DNA of 60,372 bases from Candidatus Moraniibacteriota bacterium (GCA_013334765.1 JAAXWW010000002.1:87453-147824), one strand, 5' to 3'. Positions 12,118 through 60,372 are shown, counted from the first letter of the stretch. Numbers and translations: made by a program. Notes: generated by a model not told the origin, from the letters alone.

Positions 12118-14793
12118 TTATGAATTTCTGTTTTTCCCTGGAATAGACCGAGAAATGTTTACTGATAGATAGATAGCAGCACCAAGAATAGAAACGATGC
12201 TTATGAATATCCCTATATAGAAGATCCTTTGCGGCTGATATTCCATGACCAGCTCTAAATCGTAACTTCCGTCCGGATTCCTGATACAATTCCCGCTATT
12301 CCGACACAATTGATCGGAATCCATCATCCAAGCATTGGCATAGCTATTGGCGATGAGATGGGTTTTGCTGTCCTCGATCGGACGAGCGAGCCAGTTCTCG
12401 AAGATGGAACCGTCGGGCAGATTGTCGTTTTGGATAGTTCCTTGGAAATCTTTGGAAACGAAACCGATGCTTTTCCCGTTTCCGAGATCGCTCACCCATC
12501 CTTTTCGGATATATTCCTTGACCTCATCGGCACTGGCCTGATCCTCTTCGTTGCCGTCCAGGATCTTGTAGCTATCCAGGCTTTGGTTTTGGGTCCGCCA
12601 GCTGGCAGATTTTTCAAGATACATCTTCCAACCATCATGGAACGATTCAGAGAAGACCAATGGGAACTCCCCTTGGGCAGCATGGACACGAATGCGATAT
12701 TTTGTCGGACTGATTTTTTTGAACTCAAGAGTGGGAAGATTGTCTCCTTTCCGGATAACATCATCACCGCTTTCCGATCCGCTGAAATATTTTCCAATAT
12801 TCTTATCCTGATTCAAAAAGTATATGACTGACGAATCTTTTCCATCGCCATTTTCCGAAGAAACATCGGCGATATCCGAAACATCCTTTTCAGTCAATAT
12901 TGTTTCTTTCGGAACATAGATCAATGGCAGGAAATATTCCCTTCTGAAATCATACGTATCTATACCTGAAAGGTCCTTGAGTCCGTCCCTTATTATTTTG
13001 GTATATTCCCGGTCGCCTTTGACACCCGGATCTATTTTATCCAAATACTCGCTGGTAAATTTACCAAAATTACTTTTTGATTCAAGAAAATATTTAGCCT
13101 GCAATATTTCCCTCATCTTGCGAGGAGAAGGAGTGCTGTCATAGCCAGCAATCCAGTTGTAATCATTCTGCTGAGTAATATATCCGGTGCCCAAATAGCC
13201 GAGTACTCTCGGATTATCAAGTCCTGAGTCATAGAAAGCCTTAATAGCGTTGTCATTATAGTATCCGGTATCGCTGAAATTAGGATATATCACAAATGGC
13301 TGCCTTGAGGCCAGCGACACGAAAGGAAGCGGTCCGGAAAATCCGTATTGGAAAAGATGGCTGCCATTGAAAGCCTTCGGCAAAGCGATGTTGCGCATCA
13401 AGAGTTTTTTCTTGGCATACTCGTTTTCATACTCTTTCCAATAATCCGGAACTTCCGTATGAATGGTCCGCATCGTCAGGAAATTATCGCTGTAATATAT
13501 TTCTGGGGTGAGGGCGTAGAAATACACGGTGATGATAGCGATAGACAAGACAGCAACGCTGAAATATTTGGTTTTTTTAAGGAAGAAATCAAACAGTTGG
13601 GCACCGAGAACCGTTGATGATAGGATTACTAGCGGAATGAATTTAGCCCAGGGCTCACGGAATATCCAGAATCCTGGGACATGATCCCAACATAATTTGA
13701 AAATGAATCCTAATGGGGCGCTCGGTCCCTTGGATAGAAAAACGCCGGAGAGGAAAATGAAAATCCAAAAGGAAGCCTCTTTCCCAACCCATTCTTTCTT
13801 GCTTTTCTTATCTAATATCGCGAAAAATACTGCGCCCAAGACAAAGATTATGGGGATAAAAGAATATGCGACTAAAAAACCGCTATTTTCGAAAACAGTC
13901 GCGAACTGGACATACCTATGTCCGTATCCCTCCCCTTGCCACCACGGAGCATATCCCATATACCTCATGACATTGAAAAAGGTGAGATTTTCCGAAACAC
14001 GGAGTTCTGTCGCATTCAGGCCTTTGGAAATGCCAACAGAAGATTCCAGCATCGAAGGCGCAAGGGTTGAAAGCCACCAGGCATTGATAAGGATGAACAT
14101 AAAAGAGGCGCCTATGGAAAAAAACACAACCTCCTTGATTCTTATTTTTCTCCCGATGATTATGTAGGTCAGATAGGAAAGAATGAGAAAATATACAATT
14201 GAGACGGCTGGCGGATTAGAGGATGCCTGCGCAATAATCAGGAGCGAGAAAGGCATAAGAATGATAAATTTCAGAAGTTTCCGGTCAATCAGATATTTCT
14301 TGATTACCAGGATTGTTATCGGAAGAACGATGTATACCAATTTGACGTTTAGCGCCAACGGAGAAACCACATAATGAAGATTATATGTATAAAAAAGGGA
14401 GAAGGCCGTGGCGACGGAATAGTTTGTCCTATACGATCTCACAAGAAGCAGGAACATCGAGTAACCGCAGAAGAACAGGAGAAGGAAATATAGCACCCTT
14501 TCGATAGCCTGAGGAGAAAAAACAATATGAAACAGATTAAAGAATAGCACGTAGGGAATGTTGTTTATTGAGAGATTGGAGTGTCCGAGGTTCATCCAAT
14601 CGTTCCAGGCGAAAGTCGACGTTTTCTGAATGAAAAAACCATCATATTGCAGCGAGAACTCATCCGCGCCCATCAGGAAGCCAGTATTAAAAATATTCCG
14701 GATGATGGCCAGGTTTATGATCGCTAGCAAAACCGCCCAGGCATATTCGTGCTTGAACCAAGATCTTATTTTTTTCAAAATTTCTTCAAACAT
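12118..14793 (-). CDS. Large (891 aa) polytopic membrane protein with a C-terminal extracytoplasmic domain; GT-C-type (YfhO/AftD-like) glycosyltransferase candidate
   Basis: More than 10 hydrophobic helices in the N-terminal ~430 aa, then a soluble domain (..VFSESFHDGWKMYL..) and a terminal TM helix. Paralogue of the edge-truncated gene at 1..1203. Confidence 0.6.
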   Translation of the reverse strand: MFEEILKKIRSWFKHEYAWAVLLAIINLAIIRNIFNTGFLMGADEFSLQYDGFFIQKTSTFAWNDWMNLGHSNLSINNIPYVLFFNLFHIVFSPQAIERVLYFLLLFFCGYSMFLLLVRSYRTNYSVATAFSLFYTYNLHYVVSPLALNVKLVYIVLPITILVIKKYLIDRKLLKFIILMPFSLLIIAQASSNPPAVSIVYFLILSYLTYIIIGRKIRIKEVVFFSIGASFMFILINAWWLSTLAPSMLESSVGISKGLNATELRVSENLTFFNVMRYMGYAPWWQGEGYGHRYVQFATVFENSGFLVAYSFIPIIFVLGAVFFAILDKKSKKEWVGKEASFWIFIFLSGVFLSKGPSAPLGFIFKLCWDHVPGFWIFREPWAKFIPLVILSSTVLGAQLFDFFLKKTKYFSVAVLSIAIITVYFYALTPEIYYSDNFLTMRTIHTEVPDYWKEYENEYAKKKLLMRNIALPKAFNGSHLFQYGFSGPLPFVSLASRQPFVIYPNFSDTGYYNDNAIKAFYDSGLDNPRVLGYLGTGYITQQNDYNWIAGYDSTPSPRKMREILQAKYFLESKSNFGKFTSEYLDKIDPGVKGDREYTKIIRDGLKDLSGIDTYDFRREYFLPLIYVPKETILTEKDVSDIADVSSENGDGKDSSVIYFLNQDKNIGKYFSGSESGDDVIRKGDNLPTLEFKKISPTKYRIRVHAAQGEFPLVFSESFHDGWKMYLEKSASWRTQNQSLDSYKILDGNEEDQASADEVKEYIRKGWVSDLGNGKSIGFVSKDFQGTIQNDNLPDGSIFENWLARPIEDSKTHLIANSYANAWMMDSDQLCRNSGNCIRNPDGSYDLELVMEYQPQRIFYIGIFISIVSILGAAIYLSVNISRSIPGKNRNS

Positions 14794-38145: not shown

Positions 38146-40188
38146 CTACTCTCCCTTTTCAAACCAGACCAATCTGTTCTTACTTCTGTCAAATTTGTAA
38201 TAATTCCTATAAAATCCGACTGGTCGGCTATCTAAATCAACATTCTGATAATACTCAGTGCTTATTATTCCATTATCAATCATCAACGCTTTCGATGATA
38301 TATCAACATACAGATTATTCGTGTCTTCATTGTTTCTGGTTGTTATTCCTATTTCTTCTATTTTTCCTGAATCAGTGTTGTATCTCAAGAATCTGATTTT
38401 GTTACCGTTGCAATTCTCGTACTCAGCAACAATAAACTCCTGTTTTTTGCCGTCCCCATCAATATCCTGCGGTTCGTAATAGGACAGGTTGCCTGAAGTA
38501 GAATTGGGAAAAAACAATTCTGGATCAGAAAGCCCGACAGATTCGATCAATCGTCCATTCCTATAGAGCCCCAGACTGGCCGTTGATTCATATATCTTCC
38601 CATACCTGAAACCACAATAAAGTCCGTCATCCATAGTCGCCTCTCTCTCAGAATAAATATCCACTTTGGATACCAATTTGAAACCGTCATCAAGATTGAC
38701 GTTTTCAGAATAACTATCCAGAACCTGCTTATTGCCACTGATATTCCCGGCCAAGCTCCTGCCTGCAGACGAAACAAAGAAACATGCTCCGGCAAGGAAA
38801 ACCGCCAGTAGCGCCAACTTGGTAATAGTTTTTGCAACTTTTTTGGTTTCCGTCGGACCTCCTAGATCACCCTTTCCAAAAAATCCAAAATAGACATCAT
38901 AAACCAGTCTTGCACCATCGACAAATGGGGTGTACTTATAAAGCGTATATGTGGCAGCATTTAATACTTTGAATGGTTTCCCCTCTACTTCATGAGTGAG
39001 ATTTATTCCTTGTGATTCATTATAATACTGCCTGAAATATTTCGCCGCACTATTTATCTGAATAATCAGTCCTTGGAATTGAGGAAGTTTCGTATTTTCA
39101 TCCAGGACTCCGACGCCCATAGCCCAATCGAGTTGATCCCGAGTCGGATCGACAGATTTTTCTCCCTTAATCAGATTTCTCTCTGCCTGCAGCTTCACGA
39201 GGAGTAACTTGGGATTTATTGAATTTTCGTCAGCCGATTTTTTTATCCAAAAAGCTGCCTTTTTTCCATCAAACTCCGTCTTGGAAATGTGCGACTTTTC
39301 CAAATCCTTGTGATAGGAATCCAAAAATGTCTGGATATCATCCTCACTCATCGAATCGTTCCGCAGGAACGCACTGTCCTTAATAACATAAACAGGATTA
39401 AATCCTTCTTCTATTTTAATAGGGTCATTGGAAGATTCATCTATTTTCTTTTCTTCCAATTCAAGTATCATATTTTCTAGTTCCGGCGTCCTGTCAGCCC
39501 AAAGCTCTATGTAGTGCAATCCGCTTTCCAGATTCAGTTCCTGATCGAATTCCTTCTCTCGTCCGCGCAGTTCCATACCGCACCAATACCAATTCCTGAA
39601 ATCTTTCCTGATTTCATTCTCCTGGATTTTTCCATCGATAACAAGTTTCAGATCGTCACCGTCCTTTTCCTGGGAAAAATAGTCAGCCTTAGCCCGGATA
39701 GACAGGTTTTTCAATGGCAGATCGACCAATGCGATACTGATCCATTGCCGCCTGTCCCCATTCTCTGGCGGATTATTCCCTTCAGGAACATAATCCGCTC
39801 TGCCGCCTTCGATCCGATTTATCAGAATACTCTCAAGAGCCGGGTGTTGATCGACTGTAAAAACAATGGAATGGCTGCCCTTGGACAGCTTAATAATGAA
39901 CACTCCCGTCTTTTTCAGTCCTTTCAGATTATTGCCGTTCCATGCAACCTCCCCGTCAAACAACCCTCTTTTTCCGTTCAATTTCGGAAATTCACGTCCG
40001 TCTATTGCCACCGCAAGATCATCGTCCTTGAAAAAACTCCTCAGTTTCTTGAAATTCTGCCACCAATTCCTTGCACTGGCAGTGATTTCTATGAGATAAA
40101 TTCCCTTTTCAGGAATATCAAAATCATACCTGAACTTATCGCCGATATTGCTTTCGTTCCGGTTAAAATTCTTCCTGATTATCTCCAT
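38146..40188 (-). CDS. Large multidomain envelope protein, unknown function
   Basis: 680 aa. Two N-terminal beta-sandwich-like repeats (LSKGSHSIVFTVDQHPALESILI and LESGLHYIELWADRTPELENMIL). A central segment NPKLLLVKLQAERNLI..DWAMGVG, a TM helix LALLAVFLAGACFFV, and a C-terminal FG-GAP-like DIDGDGKKQEFIV. Confidence 0.5.
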   Translation of the reverse strand: MEIIRKNFNRNESNIGDKFRYDFDIPEKGIYLIEITASARNWWQNFKKLRSFFKDDDLAVAIDGREFPKLNGKRGLFDGEVAWNGNNLKGLKKTGVFIIKLSKGSHSIVFTVDQHPALESILINRIEGGRADYVPEGNNPPENGDRRQWISIALVDLPLKNLSIRAKADYFSQEKDGDDLKLVIDGKIQENEIRKDFRNWYWCGMELRGREKEFDQELNLESGLHYIELWADRTPELENMILELEEKKIDESSNDPIKIEEGFNPVYVIKDSAFLRNDSMSEDDIQTFLDSYHKDLEKSHISKTEFDGKKAAFWIKKSADENSINPKLLLVKLQAERNLIKGEKSVDPTRDQLDWAMGVGVLDENTKLPQFQGLIIQINSAAKYFRQYYNESQGINLTHEVEGKPFKVLNAATYTLYKYTPFVDGARLVYDVYFGFFGKGDLGGPTETKKVAKTITKLALLAVFLAGACFFVSSAGRSLAGNISGNKQVLDSYSENVNLDDGFKLVSKVDIYSEREATMDDGLYCGFRYGKIYESTASLGLYRNGRLIESVGLSDPELFFPNSTSGNLSYYEPQDIDGDGKKQEFIVAEYENCNGNKIRFLRYNTDSGKIEEIGITTRNNEDTNNLYVDISSKALMIDNGIISTEYYQNVDLDSRPVGFYRNYYKFDRSKNRLVWFEKGE

Positions 40189-49516: not shown

Positions 49517-50053
49517 CTACAGCAGCCCCAGATGATCGAGCGCCATATATCCTATCTCGACATCCGTCATTTCTCCGCTTCTCAGAAGCTCCCTGAATTC
49601 AGGAAGCGACACCAAAACGACCTCTATGAATTCCGTGCTATCCAGTTTCTGCTCTCCTATCTTCTTGCAGTTCCTAGCAACTGCGCAGAATCTTTCCTTC
49701 CTAGAATATGCGTCATCGAATGATTTACCGATAATTTCCATGTCTCCGGCATAGCCGGTTTCTTCCAGAAGCTCCCTCTCGGCTGCTTTCCGGATATCTT
49801 CGCCATCTTCAATCGCTCCGCCGGGCATTTCAAGGAGGACCTTGTCAGGACCCGGCCTGAATTGCTTCGCCAATACGATTTCATTATCCTCAGTGACCGC
49901 CAAGATGCCCATGGAATTGTTTCCATACGCGATATAGTAGTCTTCTTTCTTCTTATCCGGCATCTCGAAATCGACCCGCTTTATTCCGCGGGAATATTTT
50001 TCAAATACCGTTTCGCTTTCAAGGGGTTTCCACTTTTCAATTTCCTGTTGCAT
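49517..50053 (-). CDS. Nudix hydrolase (ADP-ribose pyrophosphatase-like)
   Basis: Nudix box [24 protein letters not shown]. Confidence 0.85.
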
Positions 50054-50078
50054 ATGAATATATCAATATTGAATATCT

Positions 50079-50633
50079 TCAAATCATGCCACTGAAACAG
50101 GAATATGTCAAAAAACCGACCCTCTCGGATCGGTTCTGCCATTCTTCCGTCAATTCTTCGCGTATGGCGATTCCGCGCATGCGCTTCTCGATCCATGCAT
50201 CAGAATATCCCTTGAGCTTGTATAGCGCTTTGGTTCTTTTCGTTGCCAGTTCCGGATCTTCTATTTCCTGGACCCTTTCATAGCCGACTTTAGCCAGCCA
50301 ACGCTTGAACGGCTCTGCCTTTGGAGAAGGAATGGATTGGATTATTCGAAAAATAGTTTCCGTATTTCCGCAATCAGTTTCCCTCATTTTTCCATCCGAA
50401 GCAATCAGTTTCAACTGGTGACAATTTGTCACCACTTCGCTTCCCTCTTCTCGCAGTCGTTGCGACAGCTTGTTCCAGTATTTTCGAGCCTTCAGATTAT
50501 CTGGCTGATCGACAAGCGCTTGAATGACATCAACAACCGAAAACCACCATTCATTCTGAAAGATTATTTTCCTTATAGACTTGCCCTTGAAAATGGCAAT
50601 ATGATTGTTTGTGTTTTCCATGATAGGTAGCAT
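50079..50633 (-). CDS. Bro-N domain protein (phage-associated, DinD/antirepressor-like), apparently 3'-truncated
   Basis: IAIFKGKSIRKIIFQNEWWFSVVDVIQAL and PKAEPFKRWLAKVGYERVQEIEDPE. Homologues as I recall them continue about 90 aa beyond ..EEWQNR. Here the frame reads through a terminator copy (SERVGFLT) and then stops. Confidence 0.65.
   Translation of the reverse strand: MLPIMENTNNHIAIFKGKSIRKIIFQNEWWFSVVDVIQALVDQPDNLKARKYWNKLSQRLREEGSEVVTNCHQLKLIASDGKMRETDCGNTETIFRIIQSIPSPKAEPFKRWLAKVGYERVQEIEDPELATKRTKALYKLKGYSDAWIEKRMRGIAIREELTEEWQNRSERVGFLTYSCFSGMI
50110..50138 (-). repeat. Copy A of a 29-nt direct repeat (terminator hairpin sequence) embedded in the 3' end of the Bro-N ORF
   Basis: aaaaaaccgaccctctcggatcggttctg is identical to 50777-50805. 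The match extends to 33 nt with one mismatch. Confidence 0.8.
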
Positions 50634-52777: not shown

Positions 52778-53542
52778 TCATAATGACCTAATTTCGCAGA
52801 ATTTTTTCATAGTCTCCAGTTTTAGCATATTGCCATTGCGGGAAACCCAGTGAACTCCTCCATCACTTTTGAATTCAATAGGTTTATTGCACGATTTATT
52901 ATCAAAGCACAAAACAGCCAAATACGAAGACAGCGATCCCGTCCCACACGATTTAGTTTCAGCAAACAATCCTCGCTCATAAGTCCTTATCAGATAATGA
53001 GATTCGTCTATTTTCTGTATCGCATCGACGTTTACGCCTTCTGGATAATCCTTCTGCATTTCTTTTCCAAATTTGGTCAAATCGAAATTATTCAGATCAT
53101 CCACTAAATAAACAATATGAGGCTCTCCAACTTTTATGTACACACAGTTACTGTCGTTATTGATCTTTTTCATGTCAGAAAATTTGAGGCTCATCGATAT
53201 CGATTGCTTTTCAGAATCTCCTTCAACAATAGCTCCATTATCCTTCATCTCTATTTTGCCTTTATCTAAACCTAACAAATAGGCAATCAGAAGTGTTCCA
53301 TTTCCACAAGATTCAGATTCCGACCCATCTTTTTCGTAAATTTCCATAAAAGCATCGAAAACATTCGATGGCCTCAGAAAAAGCGCAGAATCAACACCGT
53401 ATTTATTTATATTCTCCACGGCAAAATCAACTTTTGACTGCCGGCTCATTTCCATACTGCGACAATCTAAAATAATAAAACTATTACCGCAACAACTTCC
53501 AACATATTCCCTTCTTTCATATTGATTCATATGCTCATTCAT
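52778..53542 (-). CDS. Diaminopimelate epimerase-like (DapF/PhzF fold)
   Basis: GNSFIILD plus the two catalytic-Cys motifs ESCGNGT and KSCGTGS. Short at 254 aa. Confidence 0.65.
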   Translation of the reverse strand: MNEHMNQYERREYVGSCCGNSFIILDCRSMEMSRQSKVDFAVENINKYGVDSALFLRPSNVFDAFMEIYEKDGSESESCGNGTLLIAYLLGLDKGKIEMKDNGAIVEGDSEKQSISMSLKFSDMKKINNDSNCVYIKVGEPHIVYLVDDLNNFDLTKFGKEMQKDYPEGVNVDAIQKIDESHYLIRTYERGLFAETKSCGTGSLSSYLAVLCFDNKSCNKPIEFKSDGGVHWVSRNGNMLKLETMKKFCEIRSL

Positions 53543-53559
53543 ATTTCAAAATACGCGAA

Positions 53560-54879
53560 TTATATCCAGTTCCACTCCTTCAACAATTTCCTATCATTTT
53601 TTACAAACCTAAGACCAATATCAGTCCTGTAAAACATCTTTGGTATGATTATCTTACCTATTATGCCGTATATTTTCTCCCTAGCTTTCTGGATTGTTTT
53701 TTCAACACTAGTAACATACAACACATATCCGGTGCTGCCAGCGATGCGATATTGTTCACTGTCCCTGTTTTTCTCAATCATAACTTCTTCAAAATGAACG
53801 TGCGATAATTCCTCTTGAGACATATCCTTCTTAAAGAAAATGTTAACCCCCTTTTGGCTAAGGCTGCTGTCCGATGTTCTGTATGGAAACGGCGGAACTG
53901 TAACAGCAACATTTACTCCATAACCTTTTTTGTATTGCAACTCGTAATCTTTCCCTTTTGCCATAGCAAGCAGAAATTCGCTCCATGGAGATATATGTAT
54001 TTCGCTCTGCATTTCATTCGTCGACGATCCAAACCTTGATGTTATCTCAAGAGGATAAACCGTATCTTTGTCAGACACTATGCAATTTACATCCACATAT
54101 CCCTTATAACTACTTTTTCTTAAGTGAGGTTCGAGTTTAGCCAGAGTTTCCTGGAAAAGCCTCTTGTTAGAATTTTTTTCGTACCACATCAGCGTTCCAG
54201 TCTCTCCACCAAGCGGCCCTATGTCATCATTACACAGATGTTTATGCTCTATATTAAAAACTAATGGACCAATCCATGTATTGCCATTGAAGAATCTTCC
54301 AATAGCGATTTCGACTCCGCAAACTTTTCTCTGAAGTGAAACACGATATGATTCTCCTAGATGAACCCGGTAATTTTCAAGCACCTCCAGAACATCCGAT
54401 CCATCATCCATCTCCCCCACGCAGGTTAGAGCCTCATCGTGATTATCTTGCTTTAAAACCCATCTTCCTTTTCGCTTCTTGATAAAATCTATGGCAGACT
54501 TCACCGTAAAAGATTTCGTTTCAAAATCATCATCCATGCCAAATCCGCATGTTCTCATCACCTTTTGTCCGTATTTTCTATCCAGCTCAAGTCTGTCTCC
54601 ATCGCCACTTCCGCCAATAACCAAGTACCCTTCTCGCCTAAGACTGTCTTGTTCGGTGCCATACCCCACATCGTCGAACACTATGAGCCCATCTTTTCCA
54701 ACCCATCCTAATTCTTTTTTCCAATCTTGAGTTTTCTCCACCATTCCGTTGAAACAATCCTTATCTCCTCCGTTTTCTATGCAGAGTTTAACTTCACATT
54801 CTTCATTTTTCAGCTGGTATGCAAGATCACCTGCAATAAGCTCTTTAGAAACAAATAAAACTCTAAGTCTCCTAGACAT
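53560..54879 (-). CDS. PurD-like ATP-grasp ligase (phosphoribosylamine--glycine ligase family)
   Basis: GPLGGETGTLMWY, PLEITSRFGSSTNEMQ and GSTGYVLYVTS...RTDIG align with the E. coli PurD blocks GPNTGGMGAYSP, IEFNCRFGDPETQ and GGRVLCVTA...RKDIG as I recall them. Confidence 0.6.
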   Translation of the reverse strand: MSRRLRVLFVSKELIAGDLAYQLKNEECEVKLCIENGGDKDCFNGMVEKTQDWKKELGWVGKDGLIVFDDVGYGTEQDSLRREGYLVIGGSGDGDRLELDRKYGQKVMRTCGFGMDDDFETKSFTVKSAIDFIKKRKGRWVLKQDNHDEALTCVGEMDDGSDVLEVLENYRVHLGESYRVSLQRKVCGVEIAIGRFFNGNTWIGPLVFNIEHKHLCNDDIGPLGGETGTLMWYEKNSNKRLFQETLAKLEPHLRKSSYKGYVDVNCIVSDKDTVYPLEITSRFGSSTNEMQSEIHISPWSEFLLAMAKGKDYELQYKKGYGVNVAVTVPPFPYRTSDSSLSQKGVNIFFKKDMSQEELSHVHFEEVMIEKNRDSEQYRIAGSTGYVLYVTSVEKTIQKAREKIYGIIGKIIIPKMFYRTDIGLRFVKNDRKLLKEWNWI

Positions 54880-54944
54880 ATCTTTCTTGCTGTTATTCAG
54901 AAAACTTTATATAACGAATACTAAAACAATAATTCAATTTTGAC

Positions 54945-54983
54945 AAATAAAAAGGGCGCTCCATAGACAGAACAGGAGCGCCC
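54945..54983 (-). terminator. Intrinsic terminator after the 177-aa membrane protein gene
   Basis: 9-bp GC-rich stem gggcgctcc / ggagcgccc with a 12-nt loop, then TTTTTATTT on the minus strand. Confidence 0.65.
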
Positions 54984-54998
54984 CGTCAGCAAATTCAT

Positions 54999-55532
54999 TC
55001 ATCCGATGATGAACTTTATGGACTCAACACCTCCAAACACTGCAAGTGCCCAAGTTGCGTTACCAACAACAAGACTACTTAAAAATATCGACCATCCTTT
55101 CACGCTTAGTCCATTATACCGTCCATTCCTGCAAAAAGCCACGGTATAGAATGGGTCTTTCCAAAGAGATAGGATGACAAACGCAATAGGTACTCCACCC
55201 TTCTTTAAAGAAAAGGCTACAGCCCTTCTAAACCAGTTGTGGCCTTCGTACTTCTTCAATCCGTCGACCCAGTCCTTGACACCTTCGATAAGGAAAAGAT
55301 CCTTCTTGAGATAGTCATAGACACGTATCTGCGCGTAGCAGATCAGAAAAGAGAGCGATACCATAATCAGGAAACCTTTTTGCAAACCAAATCTCCACAT
55401 CACATACCCATACAAGGGGTAATTGAAGGCGTGCTCCAAGATGAGATCGAACATGTATGCGGCTCCGACCTCGCCGATCCGCTTCTTCTTGACCGCGATG
55501 TTCGCGGCCACTTTCTTCAAGAAACCGCTCAT
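54999..55532 (-). CDS. Membrane protein, unknown function
   Basis: 177-aa ORF with about four TM helices. No family recognised. Confidence 0.5.
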   Translation of the reverse strand: MSGFLKKVAANIAVKKKRIGEVGAAYMFDLILEHAFNYPLYGYVMWRFGLQKGFLIMVSLSFLICYAQIRVYDYLKKDLFLIEGVKDWVDGLKKYEGHNWFRRAVAFSLKKGGVPIAFVILSLWKDPFYTVAFCRNGRYNGLSVKGWSIFLSSLVVGNATWALAVFGGVESIKFIIG

Positions 55533-55973: not shown

Positions 55974-57632
55974 TCACAAAATTTTCTTTAACACATAGTT
56001 ATGAATGACCAGATAATCCATTTCAGTACCCAAGAAACACCTAACTGCGTCATCAGGAGTTTCTACTAGCGGTTCGCCAGCAACATTAAATGATGTATTT
56101 AAAATCATAGGTACCTTAGTTAGTTTGTAAAACTTTTTTACCAACTCATAAAAAATACCATTTTCTTTTTTGGTTAAAGTTTGGATTCTGCAAGTGTTAT
56201 CCACATGAGTTACTGCTGGTATTTTTTTTATTTTATCCTTTTTTACTTTGGCAACAAATAACATAAAGGGACTCCGCTCGTTAATGTCAAAGTAATCACT
56301 CATTCTTTCTAGTAAAACAGATGCTGCAAATGGACGAAATTCTTCGCGATTTTTCACCTTTTTATTTAATATATCTTTCATATCTCTTCTCCGCGGATCG
56401 CAAATAATACTTCGATGACCCAAAGCGCGAGGCCCCAGCTCACTTCCTCCCTGAAACCACCCTACAATATTTCCTTCGCTTACTAGCTTAGCAACAATTT
56501 CTGGTATTTGATTCAATTCATATTCTTTCAATTCGTATTTATTAGCTCTAGAAATTACATCATCCTTAAATCCAGATCTATTTTTTAATTTTTTACCTAT
56601 CTCATTATCATTATAAATCTTTCCACGGTAATCATGCACCCACTTGCTTCTTTTATTTCTTTTATTTTTACCCAATACATAATATCCATATAAAGCGTTT
56701 CCGACACACTGACCAGAGTCATTTGCGGCTGGAAATATATGCATATTTTTTATTTTTTTATTATTCAATAGCTTCGTGTTGCATACACTATTCAATGCAC
56801 CACCTCCAGCTAGACATAAATTTTCACTTTTTGTTAAGCCGATCGCTTTTTCAACATCACCAAAAATAGCCCTTTCAAACTCAGATTGAACCCAGGCTGC
56901 CATATCTTTATAATCATTTACGCTGTTTTCAGAAAAACATTTCGGAATATTTATTTTATTGCTCTTACAAAAATGACTCAATCTGTCAGATAAATAACCT
57001 TCAGAACCAAAATTATTTATATAAAAGCCATCTATTCGTTGTGAATAAATAGGATACTTACAAAATTTATCTGAAATGCCATAAGAAGCAAGTCCCATCG
57101 TCTTTCCAGCTTCACTACTTGTCCATCCGAAATAAGAAGTAAAGATCTCATAAGCTTTCGTTATTCCTCTTTGGGCATCTCTTAACGGATTTCCTCCGAT
57201 TTTTGTTATCTTATTTTCATTGCCGATATAAAAACTCTCAGTATCTTGTCCATTTCCATGCCCATCATAAATAAAAATTGTCGCTTCATTAAACTTTGAT
57301 GTGAAAAACGCTGAACAAGCATGAGACAAGTGGTGATCAACCGAAAAACATTTTTCCTTAGGAAATCCTATGGATTGCAACCCACCATCATATTTTTTTG
57401 GCAACTTATTTTTATAACCGCTAAAAACTATAGCGTCTATGTCTCTTATATTAATTTTTGAACAATTAAGGCAATAAAAAAGAGAGTTAATCCAGCCAGA
57501 GGAGTTTTTCTTTCTATTCAACCGCTCTTCACTGATGGCAACAACGATTTTACCGTCTACACACAATGCACACCCACCATCATGCCCGGTGTTAATACCT
57601 ATAACATTTTTAATTGTTCTTTTTTTAGACAT
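55974..57632 (-). CDS. Carbamoyltransferase (NodU/CmcH/TobZ family)
   Basis: IGINTGHDGGCALCVDGKIVVAISEERLNRKK, DHHLSHACSAFFTS, GGGALNSV and the C-terminal HVDNTCRIQT..NTSFN. Confidence 0.9.
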   Translation of the reverse strand: MSKKRTIKNVIGINTGHDGGCALCVDGKIVVAISEERLNRKKNSSGWINSLFYCLNCSKINIRDIDAIVFSGYKNKLPKKYDGGLQSIGFPKEKCFSVDHHLSHACSAFFTSKFNEATIFIYDGHGNGQDTESFYIGNENKITKIGGNPLRDAQRGITKAYEIFTSYFGWTSSEAGKTMGLASYGISDKFCKYPIYSQRIDGFYINNFGSEGYLSDRLSHFCKSNKINIPKCFSENSVNDYKDMAAWVQSEFERAIFGDVEKAIGLTKSENLCLAGGGALNSVCNTKLLNNKKIKNMHIFPAANDSGQCVGNALYGYYVLGKNKRNKRSKWVHDYRGKIYNDNEIGKKLKNRSGFKDDVISRANKYELKEYELNQIPEIVAKLVSEGNIVGWFQGGSELGPRALGHRSIICDPRRRDMKDILNKKVKNREEFRPFAASVLLERMSDYFDINERSPFMLFVAKVKKDKIKKIPAVTHVDNTCRIQTLTKKENGIFYELVKKFYKLTKVPMILNTSFNVAGEPLVETPDDAVRCFLGTEMDYLVIHNYVLKKIL

Positions 57633-57633
57633 A

Positions 57634-58035
57634 TTAATACAAAAACTGGGAATTTAACAAATCCTGCGCGACAAGTTTCTGATTAAACGCAAAATTAAAA
57701 TCTAAAATTCTTTCATCTATTGGAAACCATCCATAATTTGACAACTCATTATTCAATTTGAGTGATTTTTCAGAAAAATCACAAAGATAATAAAATGCCT
57801 TGATAGTATTTCCATTGCTCTTCATAGAATATTCCTGGAAAAATCGTATATTTTTAGCTTCTATCTTCAATTCCTCTCTTAATTCTCTTAACAGTGCATC
57901 CTTTTTCAATTCTCCCCTGTTAGCTACCCCGCCAGGAAAAGACCACTTGCCACACTCATCTTCTTTTTCTGAACGCTGCACCAAAAGAATTTTTTTATCT
58001 TTTATAATAATTGCATCTACTATTATTGTTATCAT
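57634..58035 (-). CDS. Nudix hydrolase
   Basis: Nudix box PGGVANRGELKKDALLRELREELKIE. Confidence 0.85.
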   Translation of the reverse strand: MITIIVDAIIIKDKKILLVQRSEKEDECGKWSFPGGVANRGELKKDALLRELREELKIEAKNIRFFQEYSMKSNGNTIKAFYYLCDFSEKSLKLNNELSNYGWFPIDERILDFNFAFNQKLVAQDLLNSQFLY

Positions 58036-58059
58036 ATAAAAAAATTAAAAAATCATCCT

Positions 58060-58091
58060 GCTCGGGCTATCAATAATATGATAGCCCGAGC
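58060..58091 (-). promoter_or_regulatory. Perfect 13-bp stem-loop between the NDK-like and Nudix genes (intra-operon processing or attenuation site candidate)
   Basis: gctcgggctatca - ataata - tgatagcccgagc. It starts 1 nt after the NDK-like stop codon. On the minus strand the T-run begins only 7 nt after the stem. Confidence 0.5.
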
Positions 58092-58538
58092 TTAATATTT
58101 GCAGAAATTTTTAAAAATCTCTACTTCTACGCGCGCATCACCCTTATTATCGGATTTGTGCACCGCATTCAAAAAGAACTCCCTGCCCCTGTAAAAACCA
58201 GAACTACCCAAACCAAACATTCTCCTAAGCGTACCGATCGCGCATCTCGATGGTTGCGGGCTTAATCCACAGAATCTTTTAAATCTTGCTACAGCATCAA
58301 AACCTTCGATTATGCCCAATTCAGATGTGCCCATACTCATAAAATAAACATAGGCACTAAATAGCTCTTCATCTCTCAAATAGAGCTGGTCAAGCCTTCT
58401 AAACAACAGTAAGTCATTGTAGGTCAGCCTCCTTTCGAGTGTATCACTAATAATGAAACCATTATCAATAATAACACCCGTTATTTCCTTCCTACGATTA
58501 AACGCTTCCGGCTTGATAATAAACAGGGTTTGTTCCAC
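58092..58538 (-). CDS. Divergent nucleoside-diphosphate-kinase-like protein
   Basis: TLFIIKPEAF (NDK IKPD), YFMSMGTSELGIIEG, GTLRRMFG and NAVHKSD (NDK NxxHGSD, catalytic His retained). Confidence 0.55.
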   Translation of the reverse strand: MEQTLFIIKPEAFNRRKEITGVIIDNGFIISDTLERRLTYNDLLLFRRLDQLYLRDEELFSAYVYFMSMGTSELGIIEGFDAVARFKRFCGLSPQPSRCAIGTLRRMFGLGSSGFYRGREFFLNAVHKSDNKGDARVEVEIFKNFCKY

Positions 58539-58567
58539 TGCATCCTCCTTGATTTAAAGGTTCTTTT

Positions 58568-59188
58568 TTAATTTGTCTTATCGGTTTGACAAATTTTTTT
58601 ATCTGTAAAACTTAGGATTTCTTTAATTGATTTATATTTATCTTCCACCATTTTTCTTGCAAAAGGTATTGTAAGTTTTTTCCATGATCTTTCAATTTTA
58701 TCATCAATCCATTTTGCCCCGTCTTCAAGTGACATTTCTTTTTTACCAAAAGCTGAATAAAAAAGAATAATTCTGAATTCAAAATGGGACATTGCATCTG
58801 CACACGCAACTATCTCTTCCTCTATGCTTGTTTTTTTAATATTACAACTTCCTCGATGAGCATATATGCATCGGGAAACTTTTTTTATTTTTTCAGGGCT
58901 ATATTTAAGTTTTTTTAATATTATAGTAGCCTCATACGAACTAGTTTTATGATGATTCTTAACATCACCTCGAACTCTTGTTAAATCATGCAGCCAGCAT
59001 GCCAACTCCACAATCTCGATATCTGCTCCAAGCTTTTTCGCCAACATCTTTCCATATTCAACTACGGGATATATATGGTATTTCCAACGATCTTCAGTCG
59101 TGCAAGCATCTTTAACAACACATTTTACTTCGTTCAATATCCTAGCATAATTATAATCATTTTTTTTTGCTATATCTGACATAATCAT
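58568..59188 (-). CDS. HD-domain phosphohydrolase
   Basis: H...HD...H...D pattern: KYHIYPV, LACWLHDLTRV, IYAHRG and CADAMSH. Confidence 0.8.
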   Translation of the reverse strand: MIMSDIAKKNDYNYARILNEVKCVVKDACTTEDRWKYHIYPVVEYGKMLAKKLGADIEIVELACWLHDLTRVRGDVKNHHKTSSYEATIILKKLKYSPEKIKKVSRCIYAHRGSCNIKKTSIEEEIVACADAMSHFEFRIILFYSAFGKKEMSLEDGAKWIDDKIERSWKKLTIPFARKMVEDKYKSIKEILSFTDKKICQTDKTN

Positions 59189-60177
59189 TTTTTAAACTTC
59201 TTGTCTATGTATTCGGGAGTTACACCAAACCGCCAAAAATCATAGTATTTCTGCCTATGGAGAAACCCGCTATAATCTCTCCTTTTCTTTTCTTTTACTA
59301 TCTCTTTCATTAATTCTATTTTTTCTTCTAATGTTTTATTTCTAAAATCACGGACATGATTAAGATTTATTGTGCAATTTGAAACAAAACCATTAGGACT
59401 CACTCTGATTTTTGGACATTTTTTTTGATCACATTTAAATCCTACGCTAAAATTTGGGTTAACGCCATATATTCCTCTTTTTCCTTTAATCTTAAAATAA
59501 GATGACTTGGGAACATCCCCAAAAATTTTAACAGGAGTTAGCTCTCCTATATCTTTCATATGATTCAACATCTCATTTTCCGATACAAATTGATCTTCAA
59601 AAATTGACTTATTATATTCATACATTTGACCACAAGGTACTATTTCTAAGAAACGTACGACCACCTTTCCATTATATTTATCGAAATAATCAATCATTTC
59701 TCCTATTATACTTATGTTTGATTTCGTAACTACGCAATTAATTTTAATCTTATTATATAAATCAACCGCCTTATCAATAGAGGTTATCACTTTATGTAAT
59801 CCATCGTAACCACATATTTTTTTGTACTTTTCTGACTCAAGAGAATCTAGACTAAAATTAATTTTTGTTAAGCCATATTCTCTTAAATCTTCCGCGATCT
59901 TGCTATATAAAATACCATTCGTTGTTAAGCTTTGTCGCACAATTCCTATTTCCTTTGCTTTTTTAACAAGTTTTAAAAAATCTGGCCTTATCGTAGGCTC
60001 TCCCCCTGTCCAACTAACTTTTTTTATCCCAGCCTGAAAAGCCGCCCGTAACAAATCTTCTATATCTTTTTCAGACATTAGCTCCCTGGGATTTGCAACG
60101 CGCTGAGTATTGCAATAAATACAATTTAAATTACACAGAGATGTGACTGATATTCTTAAAGTATAATTATTTTCCAT
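59185..60177 (-). CDS. MoaA-like radical SAM enzyme (atypical; probably not a bona fide GTP 3',8-cyclase)
   Basis: LRISVTSLCNLNCIYCN (CX3CX2C), VSWTGGEPTIRPD, LTTNG and VVRFLEIVP. The C-terminal Cys triad KCDQKKCPKIRVSPNGFVSNC is CX4CX13C, whereas MoaA has CX2CX13C. There is no C-terminal Gly-Gly. Confidence 0.8.
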   Translation of the reverse strand: MENNYTLRISVTSLCNLNCIYCNTQRVANPRELMSEKDIEDLLRAAFQAGIKKVSWTGGEPTIRPDFLKLVKKAKEIGIVRQSLTTNGILYSKIAEDLREYGLTKINFSLDSLESEKYKKICGYDGLHKVITSIDKAVDLYNKIKINCVVTKSNISIIGEMIDYFDKYNGKVVVRFLEIVPCGQMYEYNKSIFEDQFVSENEMLNHMKDIGELTPVKIFGDVPKSSYFKIKGKRGIYGVNPNFSVGFKCDQKKCPKIRVSPNGFVSNCTINLNHVRDFRNKTLEEKIELMKEIVKEKKRRDYSGFLHRQKYYDFWRFGVTPEYIDKKFKK

Positions 60178-60237
60178 TATTTTATAAATAGGATAATATT
60201 GATATTTCAGTTAAATATACAACTTCTATAAAATATG

Positions 60238-60372
60238 TCAAATTTTTGTATTAGATGAGTACATCTTGGACACCCGGGAGTATTTCTGGGTAAATTCGAT
60301 AGGAGTCAGATAATCCAGGGCCTGATGCGGCCGATTGAAATTGTATTCGATCAGCCATTCGGTCAGGTTGCG
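60238..60372 (-). mobile_element. 3' end of an rve (integrase-core, IS3/IS481-like) transposase gene; the N-terminal part lies outside the window
   Basis: Not in the ORF track because it is edge-truncated. My translation is RNLTEWLIEYNFNRPHQALDYLTPIEFTQKYSRVSKMYSSNTKI*. The W..YN..RPH.AL...TP motif is typical of the C-terminus of DDE integrase-core transposases. Confidence 0.7.

What the first reader, a model, noticed from the sequence alone, without database searches (positions are those of the whole stretch)
55974..60177. Low-GC operon (MoaA-like radical SAM + HD phosphohydrolase + NDK-like + Nudix + NodU/CmcH carbamoyltransferase): candidate modified-nucleotide or nucleoside-analogue pathway
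Seen: five co-directional, tightly packed genes, with a 4-nt overlap at 59185-59188 and a 1-nt gap at 57632/57634. Spot-counted GC on individual 60-nt lines is about 30% in this block, against roughly 45-53% in the ddl, glyA and GT regions. The block ends 60 nt from a transposase fragment. The radical SAM protein has MoaA-type N-terminal motifs. It deviates at the second cluster (CX4CX13C) and lacks the C-terminal Gly-Gly. No moaB/C/D/E, mog or moeA is present in the window.

Established: MoaA and viperin-type enzymes act on NTPs. Prokaryotic viperins are often next to nucleotide kinases. Oxetanocin biosynthesis pairs a radical SAM enzyme with an HD phosphohydrolase. NodU/CmcH/TobZ enzymes O-carbamoylate sugars and nucleosides.

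Inference: an NTP is radically rearranged, its phosphates are trimmed or restored (HD, Nudix, NDK-like), and the product is carbamoylated. The product could be an antiviral chain terminator or an antimetabolite. A more mundane alternative is that the carbamoyltransferase decorates a surface glycan and the co-location is coincidental.
Basis: partly seen in the sequence, partly recalled or inferred. Interest (0 to 1): 0.8.

Follow-up and report, generated by a model that had tools for sequence, protein, structure and literature searches.

The report
Unnamed MoaA-sister radical-SAM nucleotide operon
A five-gene cassette in an ultra-small (CPR/Patescibacteria) bacterium is built around an undescribed sister family of the molybdenum-cofactor enzyme MoaA, which travels with, and is sometimes fused to, nucleotide kinases and NTP pyrophosphatases, so it most likely makes a modified nucleotide rather than molybdenum cofactor.

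Summary
Five tightly packed minus-strand genes lie at 55974-60177: MoaA-like radical SAM, HD, NDK-like, Nudix and NodU/TobZ-type carbamoyltransferase. The block is 33% GC in a 46% GC CPR genome and starts 60 nt from an IS-type transposase.

The radical SAM protein is not MoaA. It scores below all three MoaA equivalog cut-offs. It lacks the C-terminal GG, has Lys for Arg266 in 29 of 29 members, uses CX4CX13C, and carries a conserved [FY]WRFG tail. It keeps the MoaA fold (TM 0.74) and most NTP-binding residues.

The gene set is not a coincidence. The same five genes recur at 62-77% identity in another contig. rSAM-HD-NDK recurs with a glycosyltransferase or GNAT-Nudix instead of the carbamoyltransferase. 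Fusions exist: rSAM-NDK-HD, NDK-HD, Nudix-rSAM, uridine kinase-rSAM and MetK-rSAM. About 150 ordinary MoaA/rSAM loci contain no homologue of this HD.

Most likely a kinase-supplied NTP undergoes MoaA-like ribose radical chemistry, is cut to the monophosphate by HD/Nudix, and is then decorated. The chemistry, product and biological role are inferred, not shown. No paper describing the family was found. This is a new variant of a known kind, with interest about 0.7.

The parts
60214..60241 (-). Best sigma-70-like promoter match of the region (TTGACA-16-TATATT, 11 of 12). It lies between the transposase stop and the rSAM start.
   Evidence: This is a consensus match only. The number of such sites in the region is not above the shuffle expectation (33 found vs 28.7 expected).
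59185..60177 (-). MoaA-sister radical SAM enzyme, 330 aa. Radical SAM cluster C15/C19/C22, auxiliary cluster C249/C254/C268, and a conserved C-terminal HKQKYYDFWRFG motif in place of the MoaA GG tail.
58568..59188 (-). HD-domain phosphohydrolase of the YpgQ/YedJ type, predicted to be an NTP pyrophosphohydrolase. Its family of about 21 clusters was found only next to, or fused with, this rSAM family.
58092..58538 (-). Divergent NDK-like kinase (GTG start). The catalytic His (NAVHKSD) and the Lys/Arg/Asn of the NDK active site are retained.
   Evidence: Fused to HD in P0074 and to rSAM + HD in P0097.
58060..58091 (-). Perfect 13-bp stem-loop followed by a T-rich tract, between the NDK-like and Nudix genes. 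It is a possible partial terminator or mRNA-stabilising hairpin separating the core trio from the accessory genes.
   Evidence: A hairpin of different sequence lies at the same intergenic position in the orthologous operon L175.
57634..58035 (-). MutT/NudG-type Nudix NTP pyrophosphohydrolase with an intact Nudix box (GX5EX7RELREELKI).
   Evidence: PADLOC PDC-S07 at 81.6 bits. Fused to the rSAM in P0033.
55974..57632 (-). NodU/CmcH/TobZ-family O-carbamoyltransferase (Kae1-like N domain plus YrdC-like C domain). This is the variable tailoring enzyme of the cassette.
   Evidence: Present after the module in L175 (77% identity), L001 and the distant L096.
60238..60372 (-). C-terminal end of an rve/IS3-type transposase that runs off the window. 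It flanks the cassette. An independent assembly breaks here.
52778..55532 (-). Three neighbouring genes: a 177-aa membrane protein, a PurD-like ATP-grasp ligase and a DapF-like epimerase. Their membership of the system is not supported. They are separated by a 441-nt gap, have intermediate GC (36-46%), and none of the three is conserved next to the module in any other locus; the 177-aa membrane protein has only weak matches about 5 kb away in one locus (L171).

Best explanation
The cassette is a nucleotide-modifying pathway built on an undescribed sister family of MoaA, restricted mainly to CPR bacteria and DPANN archaea.

Proposed steps:
1. The NDK-like kinase keeps a nucleotide in the triphosphate form. 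In relatives a fused uridine kinase does an earlier phosphorylation step.
2. The radical SAM enzyme binds that NTP as MoaA binds GTP, with the base on the unique iron of the retained auxiliary [4Fe-4S] cluster and the triphosphate held by the retained Lys/Arg residues.
3. It uses the 5'-deoxyadenosyl radical for ribose-centred chemistry (probably C3'), giving an altered NTP. The outcome is not the one that feeds Moco synthesis.
4. The YpgQ-like HD and the MutT/NudG-like Nudix enzyme remove pyrophosphate to give the modified monophosphate.
5. A lineage-specific tailoring enzyme decorates a hydroxyl. Here that is an O-carbamoyltransferase; elsewhere it is a GT4 glycosyltransferase or a GNAT.

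The end product is most likely a nucleotide or nucleoside analogue used in conflict, as an antimetabolite against phage, host or competitors.

Shown: gene content, family separation from MoaA, retention of fold and binding residues, and functional linkage of the partners.
Inferred: substrate identity, site of radical attack, order of steps, product and biological role.
For: Not MoaA but MoaA-like:
- It scores 185.5, 171.5 and 170.3 bits against equivalog cut-offs of 284, 325 and 231.
- The AlphaFold model (pLDDT 87.6) matches S. aureus MoaA at TM 0.73-0.75; the next folds are at 0.6 or below.
- Core members are 44-73% identical to each other and 34% or less to named MoaA.
- In an NJ tree the 29 core members are monophyletic inside a 61-70-tip clade that holds only 2 GG-flagged tips (one a frameshifted core member), separate from 96 GG-ending MoaA.
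- R17, K163, R192 and R268 equivalents are kept. R266 is Lys in 29 of 29 and R71 is lost.
- All true MoaA end in IGG, whereas this clade has [FY]WRFG. The literature names R17/R266/R268 and the GG motif as MoaA hallmarks.

Linkage of the partners:
- The identical five-gene order occurs in L175 at 73/76/62/74/77% identity.
- rSAM-HD-NDK-GT4 occurs in L176.
- rSAM-HD-NDK-CarbT occurs in a 413-kb Berkelbacteria contig.
- GNAT.Nudix-NDK-HD-rSAM occurs in reordered form in gut metagenomes.
- rSAM-HD occurs in L010 and L171.
- PHP replaces HD in L003, L013 and L005.
- Fusions: rSAM-NDK-HD (P0097), NDK-HD (P0074), Nudix-rSAM (P0033), uridine kinase-rSAM (P0087), MetK-rSAM (P0089) and DSP phosphatase-rSAM (P0091).

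Control: homologues of the window HD occur in every HD-type family locus and in none of about 150 loci holding ordinary MoaA or other rSAM relatives.

Partner functions:
- The HD fold is nearest B. subtilis YpgQ and E. coli YedJ.
- The Nudix is nearest MutT and the CTP pyrophosphohydrolase NudG.
- The NDK-like protein keeps the catalytic His.
- The carbamoyltransferase is nearest the secondary-metabolite enzymes NovN, GdmN and TobZ.

Host and cassette:
- The host is CPR: the best named Ddl relatives are all Patescibacteria.
- The cassette is a 33% GC block beside an IS.
Against: - No biochemical datum exists, so substrate, reaction and product are inferred from homology.
- Having two NTP pyrophosphatases beside a kinase could equally mean detoxification rather than a biosynthetic step.
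- In several CPR genomes the rSAM sits with MetK, SerRS, a PHP phosphoesterase or an MTAN-like nucleosidase and no tailoring enzyme. That looks like housekeeping rather than secondary metabolism.
- The uridine-kinase fusion points to pyrimidines, while the retained MoaA base-binding residues point to guanine. The substrate base is therefore unresolved.
- The window cassette contains no exporter and no 5'-nucleotidase.
- The tree is neighbour-joining without support values.
- The neighbourhood sample is about 13 independent contexts.
Confidence: 0.55

Rival explanations
1. It is a viperin-like antiviral immune module. The rSAM turns a kinase-supplied NTP into a chain-terminating analogue during phage infection, and HD/Nudix protect the cell by clearing the analogue.
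For: - MoaA and viperin are neighbouring rSAM families, and the protein gives partial pVip matches (PADLOC 81 bits, NF038283 70 bits).
- Kinase adjacency and kinase fusions mirror pVip-kinase architectures.
- The Nudix matches the PADLOC candidate PDC-S07.
- The cassette is a low-GC block next to an IS, with a Bro-N protein nearby.
- Some loci have toxin-antitoxin or Abi genes nearby.
Against: - It scores far below the pVip cut-off (70 vs 180).
- Its fold match to viperin is TM about 0.59, against 0.74 for MoaA, and it keeps the MoaA auxiliary cluster that viperins lack.
- Carbamoyl- or glycosyl-transferases tightly coupled to the module have no role in a chain-terminator scheme.
- Constitutive pyrophosphatases fused to the rSAM would destroy the active triphosphate.
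- The MetK/SerRS/PHP contexts are not defence islands.
- No family member was found in viral contigs.
Confidence: 0.18
2. It is housekeeping nucleotide conversion in reduced-genome symbionts. The rSAM performs RNR-like 3'-radical chemistry (deoxygenation or dehydration) on salvaged ribonucleotides. Kinases and pyrophosphatases route the products, and MetK and MTAN support the SAM turnover.
For: - The family is almost confined to CPR/DPANN.
- The partners are salvage-type enzymes: uridine kinase, NDK, MutT/NudG-like and YpgQ-like NTP pyrophosphatases, MetK, and an MTAN-like nucleosidase.
- The contexts lie among aaRS and other core genes.
- MoaA chemistry starts with H3' abstraction, as ribonucleotide reduction does (established knowledge).
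Against: - The family is rare: 3 loci among 185,579 species-representative genomes, subject to the limits of the pattern search.
- In the window it is a mobile-looking, compositionally foreign cassette.
- It would cost one SAM per turnover.
- Neither a reductant partner nor a reductase is conserved.
- Carbamoyl and glycosyl tailoring does not fit.
Confidence: 0.08
3. It modifies a sugar nucleotide for a cell-surface glycan. The rSAM acts on a GDP- or NDP-sugar, and the carbamoyl- or glycosyl-transferases decorate or transfer the sugar.
For: - Distant clade members sit beside an NTP_transferase (GMPPB-like), RmlC, RmlD and His_Phos_1 (L172).
- GT4 or GT2 genes follow the module in L176 and L007.
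- NodU/TobZ enzymes carbamoylate sugars (established knowledge).
Against: - The core family never has a nucleotidyltransferase, dehydratase or epimerase in the conserved set.
- The fusions are to a nucleoside kinase, NDK and a MutT-type Nudix, which act on plain nucleotides.
- The window has no glycan-assembly genes adjacent to the cassette.
Confidence: 0.08
4. It is a bona fide but divergent MoaA making 3',8-cH2GTP for molybdenum cofactor, and the neighbouring genes are unrelated.
For: - The best HMM, sequence and fold matches are all MoaA.
- The auxiliary cluster and most GTP-binding residues are retained.
- The GG motif is reported as not conserved in archaeal MoaA.
Against: - It scores below all three MoaA equivalog cut-offs, including the archaeal one.
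- It forms a separate clade with its own tail motif and a fixed Lys at the R266 position.
- No MoaB/C/D/E or MoeA is present in any of about 13 family neighbourhoods.
- The hosts are CPR/DPANN, which are described as lacking electron-transport chains and having limited metabolic capacity; that they therefore lack molybdoenzymes is my own knowledge.
- The partner genes are fused to the rSAM.
Confidence: 0.03

Closest known systems
MoaA / MOCS1A, GTP 3',8-cyclase (radical SAM, twitch-type auxiliary cluster)
   Same: - Same fold (TM 0.73-0.75), a CX3CX2C radical SAM cluster and a three-Cys C-terminal cluster.
- Equivalents of R17, K69, T73, N124, D128, K163, R192 and R268 are retained.
- The best HMM and PDB hits are MoaA.
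   Different: - Below equivalog cut-offs.
- CX4CX13C spacing instead of CX2CX13C.
- Lys fixed at R266, and R71 lost.
- No C-terminal GG; a conserved [FY]WRFG motif instead.
- Separate clade.
- No Moco genes nearby.
- Partnered with or fused to NDK, HD, Nudix and kinases.
- Found in Moco-poor CPR/DPANN.
Viperin / prokaryotic viperins (pVip) with adjacent nucleotide kinases
   Same: An NTP-directed radical SAM enzyme coupled or fused to nucleotide kinases. Weak HMM and fold similarity.
   Different: - Far below the pVip cut-off.
- Possesses an auxiliary cluster domain.
- Additionally coupled to NTP pyrophosphatases and to carbamoyl- or glycosyl-transferases.
Oxetanocin A pathway (OxsB radical SAM + OxsA HD phosphohydrolase)
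   Same: The logic of a radical SAM enzyme acting on a phosphorylated nucleoside, paired with an HD phosphohydrolase that removes phosphates.
   Different: - The rSAM has no cobalamin-binding domain.
- The HD groups with YpgQ/YedJ, and OxsA is not among the fold matches listed.
- NDK and Nudix partners are absent from the oxetanocin system (own knowledge).
NodU/CmcH/TobZ/NovN/GdmN O-carbamoyltransferases
   Same: The window enzyme has both family domains well above threshold and aligns over almost its full length with the crystal structures of a carbamoyltransferase (7xb6), NovN and GdmN, and over its C-terminal domain with TobZ.
   Different: It is only 151 bits against the NodU equivalog (cut-off 1000). 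Its acceptor is unknown and is predicted here to be a nucleotide or nucleoside rather than an aminoglycoside, coumarin sugar or ansamycin.
B. subtilis YpgQ / E. coli YedJ HD-domain (d)NTP pyrophosphohydrolases
   Same: Closest fold (TM 0.6-0.75) and closest sequence matches of the window HD protein. The H..HD..D metal ligands are conserved.
   Different: About 20% identity. The window HD belongs to a small family (about 21 clusters) seen only beside, or fused to, the MoaA-sister rSAM and NDK-like proteins.

Membership tests
MoaA (GTP 3',8-cyclase) | Score above the curated equivalog cut-off (TIGR02666, TIGR02668, NF001199) | tested here: not met
   185.5 vs 284; 171.5 vs 325; 170.3 vs 231. Mob_synth_C scores 33.9 vs 37.4.
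MoaA (GTP 3',8-cyclase) | N-terminal CX3CX2C radical SAM cluster and a C-terminal auxiliary cluster bound by three Cys | tested here: met
   C15/C19/C22 and C249/C254/C268 are invariant in 29 of 29 members. The spacing is CX4CX13C, not the CX2CX13C typical of MoaA.
MoaA (GTP 3',8-cyclase) | Three conserved guanine-site arginines, R17, R266 and R268 | tested here: not met
   The R17 and R268 equivalents are kept. The R266 position is Lys in 29 of 29 core members and K/D/T/E/G in the wider clade, against Arg in 89 of 96 GG-type MoaA.
MoaA (GTP 3',8-cyclase) | Catalytically essential C-terminal Gly-Gly tail in bacterial and eukaryotic MoaA | tested here: not met
   The window protein ends ..PEYIDKKFKK. 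The family has a conserved HKQKYYDFWRFG motif instead, while sampled MoaA end in IGG.
MoaA (GTP 3',8-cyclase) | MoaA three-dimensional fold | tested here: met
   Model pLDDT 87.6. Foldseek top hits 1tv7 and 2fb2, TM 0.73-0.75, E about 2e-18.
MoaA (GTP 3',8-cyclase) | Occurrence with the rest of the Moco pathway (MoaC, MoaB/Mog, MoaD/E, MoeA) | tested here: not met
   None is present in the cassette, in the 18 window proteins scanned, or in about 13 family neighbourhoods. Whole genomes could not be examined.
MoaA (GTP 3',8-cyclase) | Formation of 3',8-cH2GTP from GTP | not testable with these tools
   This needs an anaerobic enzyme assay.
Viperin / pVip | Score above the viperin equivalog cut-off (NF038283, 180 bits) | tested here: not met
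   70.1 bits. PADLOC pVip models give 81 and 78 bits over the radical SAM core only. Fold TM about 0.59.
Viperin / pVip | Association or fusion with nucleotide kinases | tested here: met
   The NDK-like gene lies two genes downstream of the rSAM in the same operon, and relatives carry uridine-kinase and NDK fusions.
Oxetanocin-type OxsB/OxsA pair | Cobalamin-binding domain on the radical SAM enzyme | tested here: not met
   No B12-binding domain is found in the window rSAM.
Oxetanocin-type OxsB/OxsA pair | HD partner that is specifically OxsA-like | tested here: inconclusive
   The top fold and sequence matches are YpgQ, YedJ and structural-genomics HD proteins. OxsA is not among the 50 listed.
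NodU/CmcH/TobZ carbamoyltransferases | Carbam_trans_N and Carbam_trans_C domains above the gathering score | tested here: met
   137.9 bits (cut-off 24) and 236.9 bits (cut-off 27). PDB matches to 7xb6, NovN, GdmN and TobZ at E 1e-58 to 1e-71.
Nucleoside diphosphate kinase | NDK domain with the catalytic histidine | tested here: met
   PF00334 at 53.5 bits (cut-off 27). NAVHKSD aligns to NVVHGSD. It is below all NDK equivalog cut-offs (46.9 vs 155), so it is a divergent paralogue.
Nudix hydrolases (MutT/NudG group) | Nudix domain and Nudix box | tested here: met
   PF00293 at 69.4 bits (cut-off 21.1). Box GGVANRGELKKDALLRELREELKI. The nearest structures are MutT and CTP pyrophosphohydrolase. 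It is below the equivalog cut-offs.

The most novel reading that the evidence does not exclude
The [FY]WRFG-tail family may be a third functional branch of the MoaA/viperin lineage. In Moco-less, biosynthetically poor CPR and DPANN cells it would use MoaA-style C3' radical chemistry on salvaged ribonucleoside triphosphates as part of core nucleotide supply. That would be a SAM-consuming, RNR-like deoxygenation or dehydration. Fused or adjacent uridine kinase, NDK, NTP pyrophosphatases, MetK and MTAN would form the surrounding salvage circuit. The carbamoyl and glycosyl variants would be later recruitments into secondary metabolism.
Probability: 0.07. Interest if true: 0.95.

Novelty: new variant of a known kind. 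Interest (0 to 1): 0.7.

Why it matters
MoaA and viperin are the two characterised radical SAM enzymes that act on free nucleoside triphosphates. One founds a universal cofactor pathway; the other makes antiviral chain terminators.

A well-delimited sister family would add a third NTP-directed radical reaction. This one keeps the MoaA nucleotide pocket and auxiliary cluster, has replaced the radical-gating GG tail with a different conserved motif, and is hard-wired by fusion to kinases and pyrophosphatases. It would likely also yield a new nucleotide analogue.

The family lives almost only in CPR bacteria and DPANN archaea. Their metabolism and their interactions with hosts are poorly understood, and this would be one of few candidate small-molecule pathways there.

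The triple fusion (rSAM-NDK-HD) and the compact five-gene cassette are directly expressible. That makes the question experimentally tractable.

Tried and rejected
- Literature: eight full-text searches (MoaA-like/paralog, radical SAM + HD + NDK + Nudix, viperin + MoaA, CPR/DPANN + MoaA, nucleoside antibiotic + MoaA, chain terminator + Nudix, and PDB codes 7XB6/8HIU) found no description of this family or operon. One query was rejected for syntax.
- Viral origin: a scan of viral contigs found only two distant rSAM relatives.
- Defence-system libraries: PADLOC gave only partial pVip core matches and a Nudix candidate (PDC-S07). The HD, NDK-like and carbamoyltransferase proteins had no meaningful hit.
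- Extending the operon to the membrane protein, PurD-like ATP-grasp and DapF-like genes: rejected as unproven. The ATP-grasp and DapF-like genes have no homologue in any of 180 loci. The membrane protein has only two weak hits in L171. There is a 441-nt gap and the GC content is intermediate.
- Oxetanocin analogy: rejected on domain and fold grounds.
- Taxon of the window by exact-cluster look-up: no names were returned. It was resolved instead through Ddl homologues, all Patescibacteria.
- 'Bacteroidales' and 'Bacillota' labels on two family loci: the Bacteroidales contig is identical over the operon to the 413-kb Berkelbacteria contig, so it is probably mis-binned.
- Frequent aaRS neighbours (SerRS, AspRS, ArgRS, and a SerRS-like amino acid:carrier-protein ligase) were considered as a hint of aaRS-inhibitor biosynthesis or a tRNA substrate. 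They were left as unexplained, because small CPR genomes are dense in such genes and the fusions all point to free nucleotides.
- Not done: an exhaustive HMM scan of all window ORFs for Moco genes, maximum-likelihood phylogeny with support values, and whole-genome co-occurrence. The context look-ups were exhausted.

Full report
**Observation**

The region holds five co-directional minus-strand ORFs:
- 59185-60177, 330 aa
- 58568-59188, 206 aa
- 58092-58538, 148 aa, GTG start
- 57634-58035, 133 aa
- 55974-57632, 552 aa

Pfam assigns Radical_SAM plus a sub-threshold Mob_synth_C, then HD, NDK, NUDIX, and Carbam_trans_N + Carbam_trans_C. The 4-nt overlap and the 1-nt gap are real. An independent gene call starts the HD two codons later, which would leave a 2-nt gap instead of the overlap.

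The block is 33.1% GC. No window of equal size in the first 52 kb falls below 39.1%, and the mean is 45.7%.

Upstream, an rve/IS3-type transposase C-terminus stops at 60238-60240, 60 nt before the rSAM ATG. A separate assembly of the same sequence breaks at that point, as expected at a repeat. The best promoter-like match of the region lies in the 60-nt spacer.

The host is itself a CPR bacterium. The best named relatives of the window's Ddl (58-64% identity) are all Patescibacteria: Parcubacteria group, Moranbacteria and Falkowbacteria.

**The radical SAM protein is a sister of MoaA, not MoaA**

It scores 185.5, 171.5 and 170.3 bits against the three MoaA equivalog models, whose cut-offs are 284, 325 and 231. 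It scores 70 against the viperin model, whose cut-off is 180.

A search of 5.8 billion proteins found about 35 clusters at 44-73% identity. There is then a gap to the sequences named MoaA, at 34% or less.

In the best 150 hits of an exhaustive profile search, sequences divide cleanly:
- True MoaA end in ..IGG and have C-X2-C-N-R-x-R.
- This family and a wider clade around it have mostly C-X4-C-x-K-I-R and a C-terminal [FY]WRFG-like motif.

In a neighbour-joining tree of 171 domains, the 29 core members are monophyletic inside a 61-70-tip clade that holds only 2 GG-flagged tips (one a frameshifted core member). Of the remaining 100 tips, 96 are GG-type MoaA (no support values).

The window residues were mapped onto S. 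aureus MoaA numbering:
- R17, K163, R192 and R268 are retained, essentially invariantly.
- T73, N124 and D128 are retained.
- R71 is lost.
- R266 is Lys in 29 of 29 core members.
- In the wider clade the R266 position varies (K/D/T/E/G). This hints that base specificity differs between subclades.

The literature identifies R17/R266/R268 and the GG tail as MoaA hallmarks, with the tail acting as the substrate-sensing gate for SAM cleavage.

An AlphaFold model (pLDDT 87.6, pTM 0.88) matches MoaA at TM 0.73-0.75. The next folds are GDGT-MAS, BlsE, AbmM, PqqE and viperin, all at 0.6 or below.

So the fold, both clusters and most of the NTP pocket are MoaA-like, while four defining MoaA features fail.

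**The gene set is a functional unit**

Independent neighbourhoods:

| Locus | Gene order |
|---|---|
| L175 | The same five genes in the same order, at 73/76/62/74/77% protein identity |
| L176 | rSAM-HD-NDK, then a GT4 glycosyltransferase |
| 413-kb Berkelbacteria contig (L001) | rSAM-HD-NDK-carbamoyltransferase |
| Human-gut contigs (L007 and relatives) | Reordered: GNAT.Nudix-NDK-HD-rSAM |
| L010, L171 | rSAM-HD |
| L003, L091, L013, L005 | A PHP phosphoesterase takes the place of HD (not visible in L091, whose contig ends within MetK), with an archaeal-type AdoMet synthase and SerRS alongside (neither in L005, which has rSAM, a second rSAM and PHP) |
| L094, L173 | An MTAN-like nucleosidase overlaps the rSAM gene |

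Fusion proteins make the same point:
- rSAM-NDK-HD (P0097)
- NDK-HD (P0074, whose HD is 57% identical to the window's)
- Nudix-rSAM (P0033)
- uridine kinase-rSAM (P0087; Udk model 162 bits)
- AdoMet synthase-rSAM (P0089)
- dual-specificity phosphatase-rSAM (P0091)

As a control, the window HD, NDK-like, Nudix and carbamoyltransferase proteins were searched against all ORFs of 180 fetched loci. HD homologues occur only in family loci and in none of about 150 loci holding ordinary MoaA or other rSAM relatives.

The HD family itself is tiny, at about 21 clusters.

The carbamoyltransferase is therefore an exchangeable tailoring step on a conserved core of rSAM plus phosphoesterase, with or without NDK.

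**What the partners are**

- HD: the model (pLDDT 90.6) is closest to B. subtilis YpgQ, E. coli YedJ and related small HD proteins. From my own knowledge, YpgQ is a (d)NTP pyrophosphohydrolase.
- Nudix: an intact Nudix box, nearest to MutT and the CTP pyrophosphohydrolase NudG.
- NDK-like: a divergent paralogue that keeps the catalytic histidine and the other active-site residues.
- Carbamoyltransferase: aligns over almost its full length with the structures of 7xb6, NovN and GdmN, and over its C-terminal domain with TobZ; all are O-carbamoyltransferases of secondary metabolism.

**Most likely mechanism (inference)**

1. Kinases hold a nucleotide in the triphosphate state.
2. The rSAM binds it as MoaA binds GTP and performs ribose-centred radical chemistry with a different outcome.
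3. HD and Nudix release pyrophosphate to give the modified monophosphate.
4. A lineage-specific transferase decorates it. In this window that is O-carbamoylation.

I put 0.55 on this scheme. The biological role is less certain. A conflict molecule (antimetabolite or antiviral) fits three things: the tailoring enzymes, the transporters next to some loci, and the mobile, compositionally foreign cassette here.

The MetK/SerRS/PHP contexts in other CPR genomes look like housekeeping. They keep alive a low-probability but striking alternative: an RNR-like, SAM-dependent nucleotide conversion in reduced-genome symbionts.

A strictly viperin-like role is weakened by the fused pyrophosphatases and the tailoring enzymes. 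A sugar-nucleotide role is suggested only by distant clade members. Bona fide MoaA function is close to excluded.

**Limits**

- No assay exists. Substrate base (guanine-type pocket versus uridine-kinase fusion), the site of attack and the product are all unknown.
- The neighbourhood sample is about 13 independent contexts.
- The rarity estimate (3 loci among 185,579 species representatives) depends on peptide patterns.
- The tree lacks support values.
- Whole genomes could not be screened for Moco or RNR genes.
- Eight literature searches found no description of the family. Neither Pfam nor NCBIfam has a specific model for it.

**Verdict**

This is a new variant of a known kind, namely NTP-directed radical SAM systems. 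Interest is about 0.7.

Noticed in passing
window 58060-58091 (minus strand); L175 about 3305-3340: A perfect 13-bp hairpin followed by a T-rich tract lies between the NDK-like and Nudix genes. The orthologous operon L175 has a hairpin of different sequence at the same intergenic position. This suggests a conserved partial terminator or RNA-stability element that splits the core trio from Nudix and the carbamoyltransferase.
   Followed up: partly
window 52778-55532: A 177-aa membrane protein, a PurD-like ATP-grasp ligase (82 bits vs cut-off 288) and a DapF-like epimerase (just above the DapF cut-off) sit downstream of the cassette, with intermediate GC. The ATP-grasp and epimerase have no homologue in any of the 180 fetched loci. 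Their relation to the cassette is unknown; an amino-acid ligation step is conceivable.
   Followed up: partly
L001 about 10880-10990 (also L002, L011): In the Berkelbacteria operon the rSAM reading frame shifts at an A-run (GAGAAAAAAATAG). The conserved ..HKQKYYDFWRFG.. tail is intact in the other frame. The carbamoyltransferase there is also split into two ORFs (220 + 351 aa). The sequence is identical in three deposited assemblies. It could be a homopolymer error, decay or slippage.
   Followed up: partly
L011 (contig in a MAG labelled Bacteroidales) vs L001 (413-kb Berkelbacteria contig): The 4.6-kb 'Bacteroidales' contig is identical over the operon to the Berkelbacteria contig, so it is probably mis-binned. 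Taxon labels on short family contigs should not be trusted.
   Followed up: yes
L171 2497-3345; L179 4959-5768: A truncated RlmN/Cfr-like radical SAM methylase (269-282 aa; 215 and 141 bits vs cut-off 290) lies upstream of the MoaA-sister gene in two different loci, directly abutting it in L171 and one gene (a sulfatase-family protein) away in L179. It is either the CPR housekeeping RlmN or a C-methylase of the same nucleotide product.
   Followed up: no
L003, L091, L013 (SerRS); L171 (Asp/AsnRS, ArgRS); L176 (AspRS, then ThiF and FeeM-like); L179 9797-10987 (SerRS-like amino acid:carrier-protein ligase): Aminoacyl-tRNA synthetase genes or aaRS-like ligases neighbour the module in many loci, and SerRS stays adjacent despite rearrangement. 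This may be chance in gene-dense CPR genomes. It could also be a hint of aminoacyl-nucleotide chemistry or aaRS-targeting products.
   Followed up: no
L096 1686-5922; L172 4118-7518: Distant members of the wider clade (34% identity) sit in other contexts. One is rSAM, aldo/keto-reductase-like, carbamoyltransferase (317 bits to the window's) and an AAA_18 kinase. The other is RmlC, His_Phos_1, rSAM and a GMPPB-like nucleotidyltransferase, with RmlD nearby. The wider clade may include sugar-nucleotide enzymes.
   Followed up: partly
window 49517-50633: A Bro-N domain protein and a second, NudE-like Nudix hydrolase lie just beyond the histidine kinase that borders the low-GC island. Bro-N domains are often phage-associated.
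   Followed up: no
window 12118-14793 and 38146-40188: Two large ORFs (891 and 680 aa) have no NCBIfam match at E <= 1e-5. They are typical of CPR dark matter and were not examined further.
   Followed up: no
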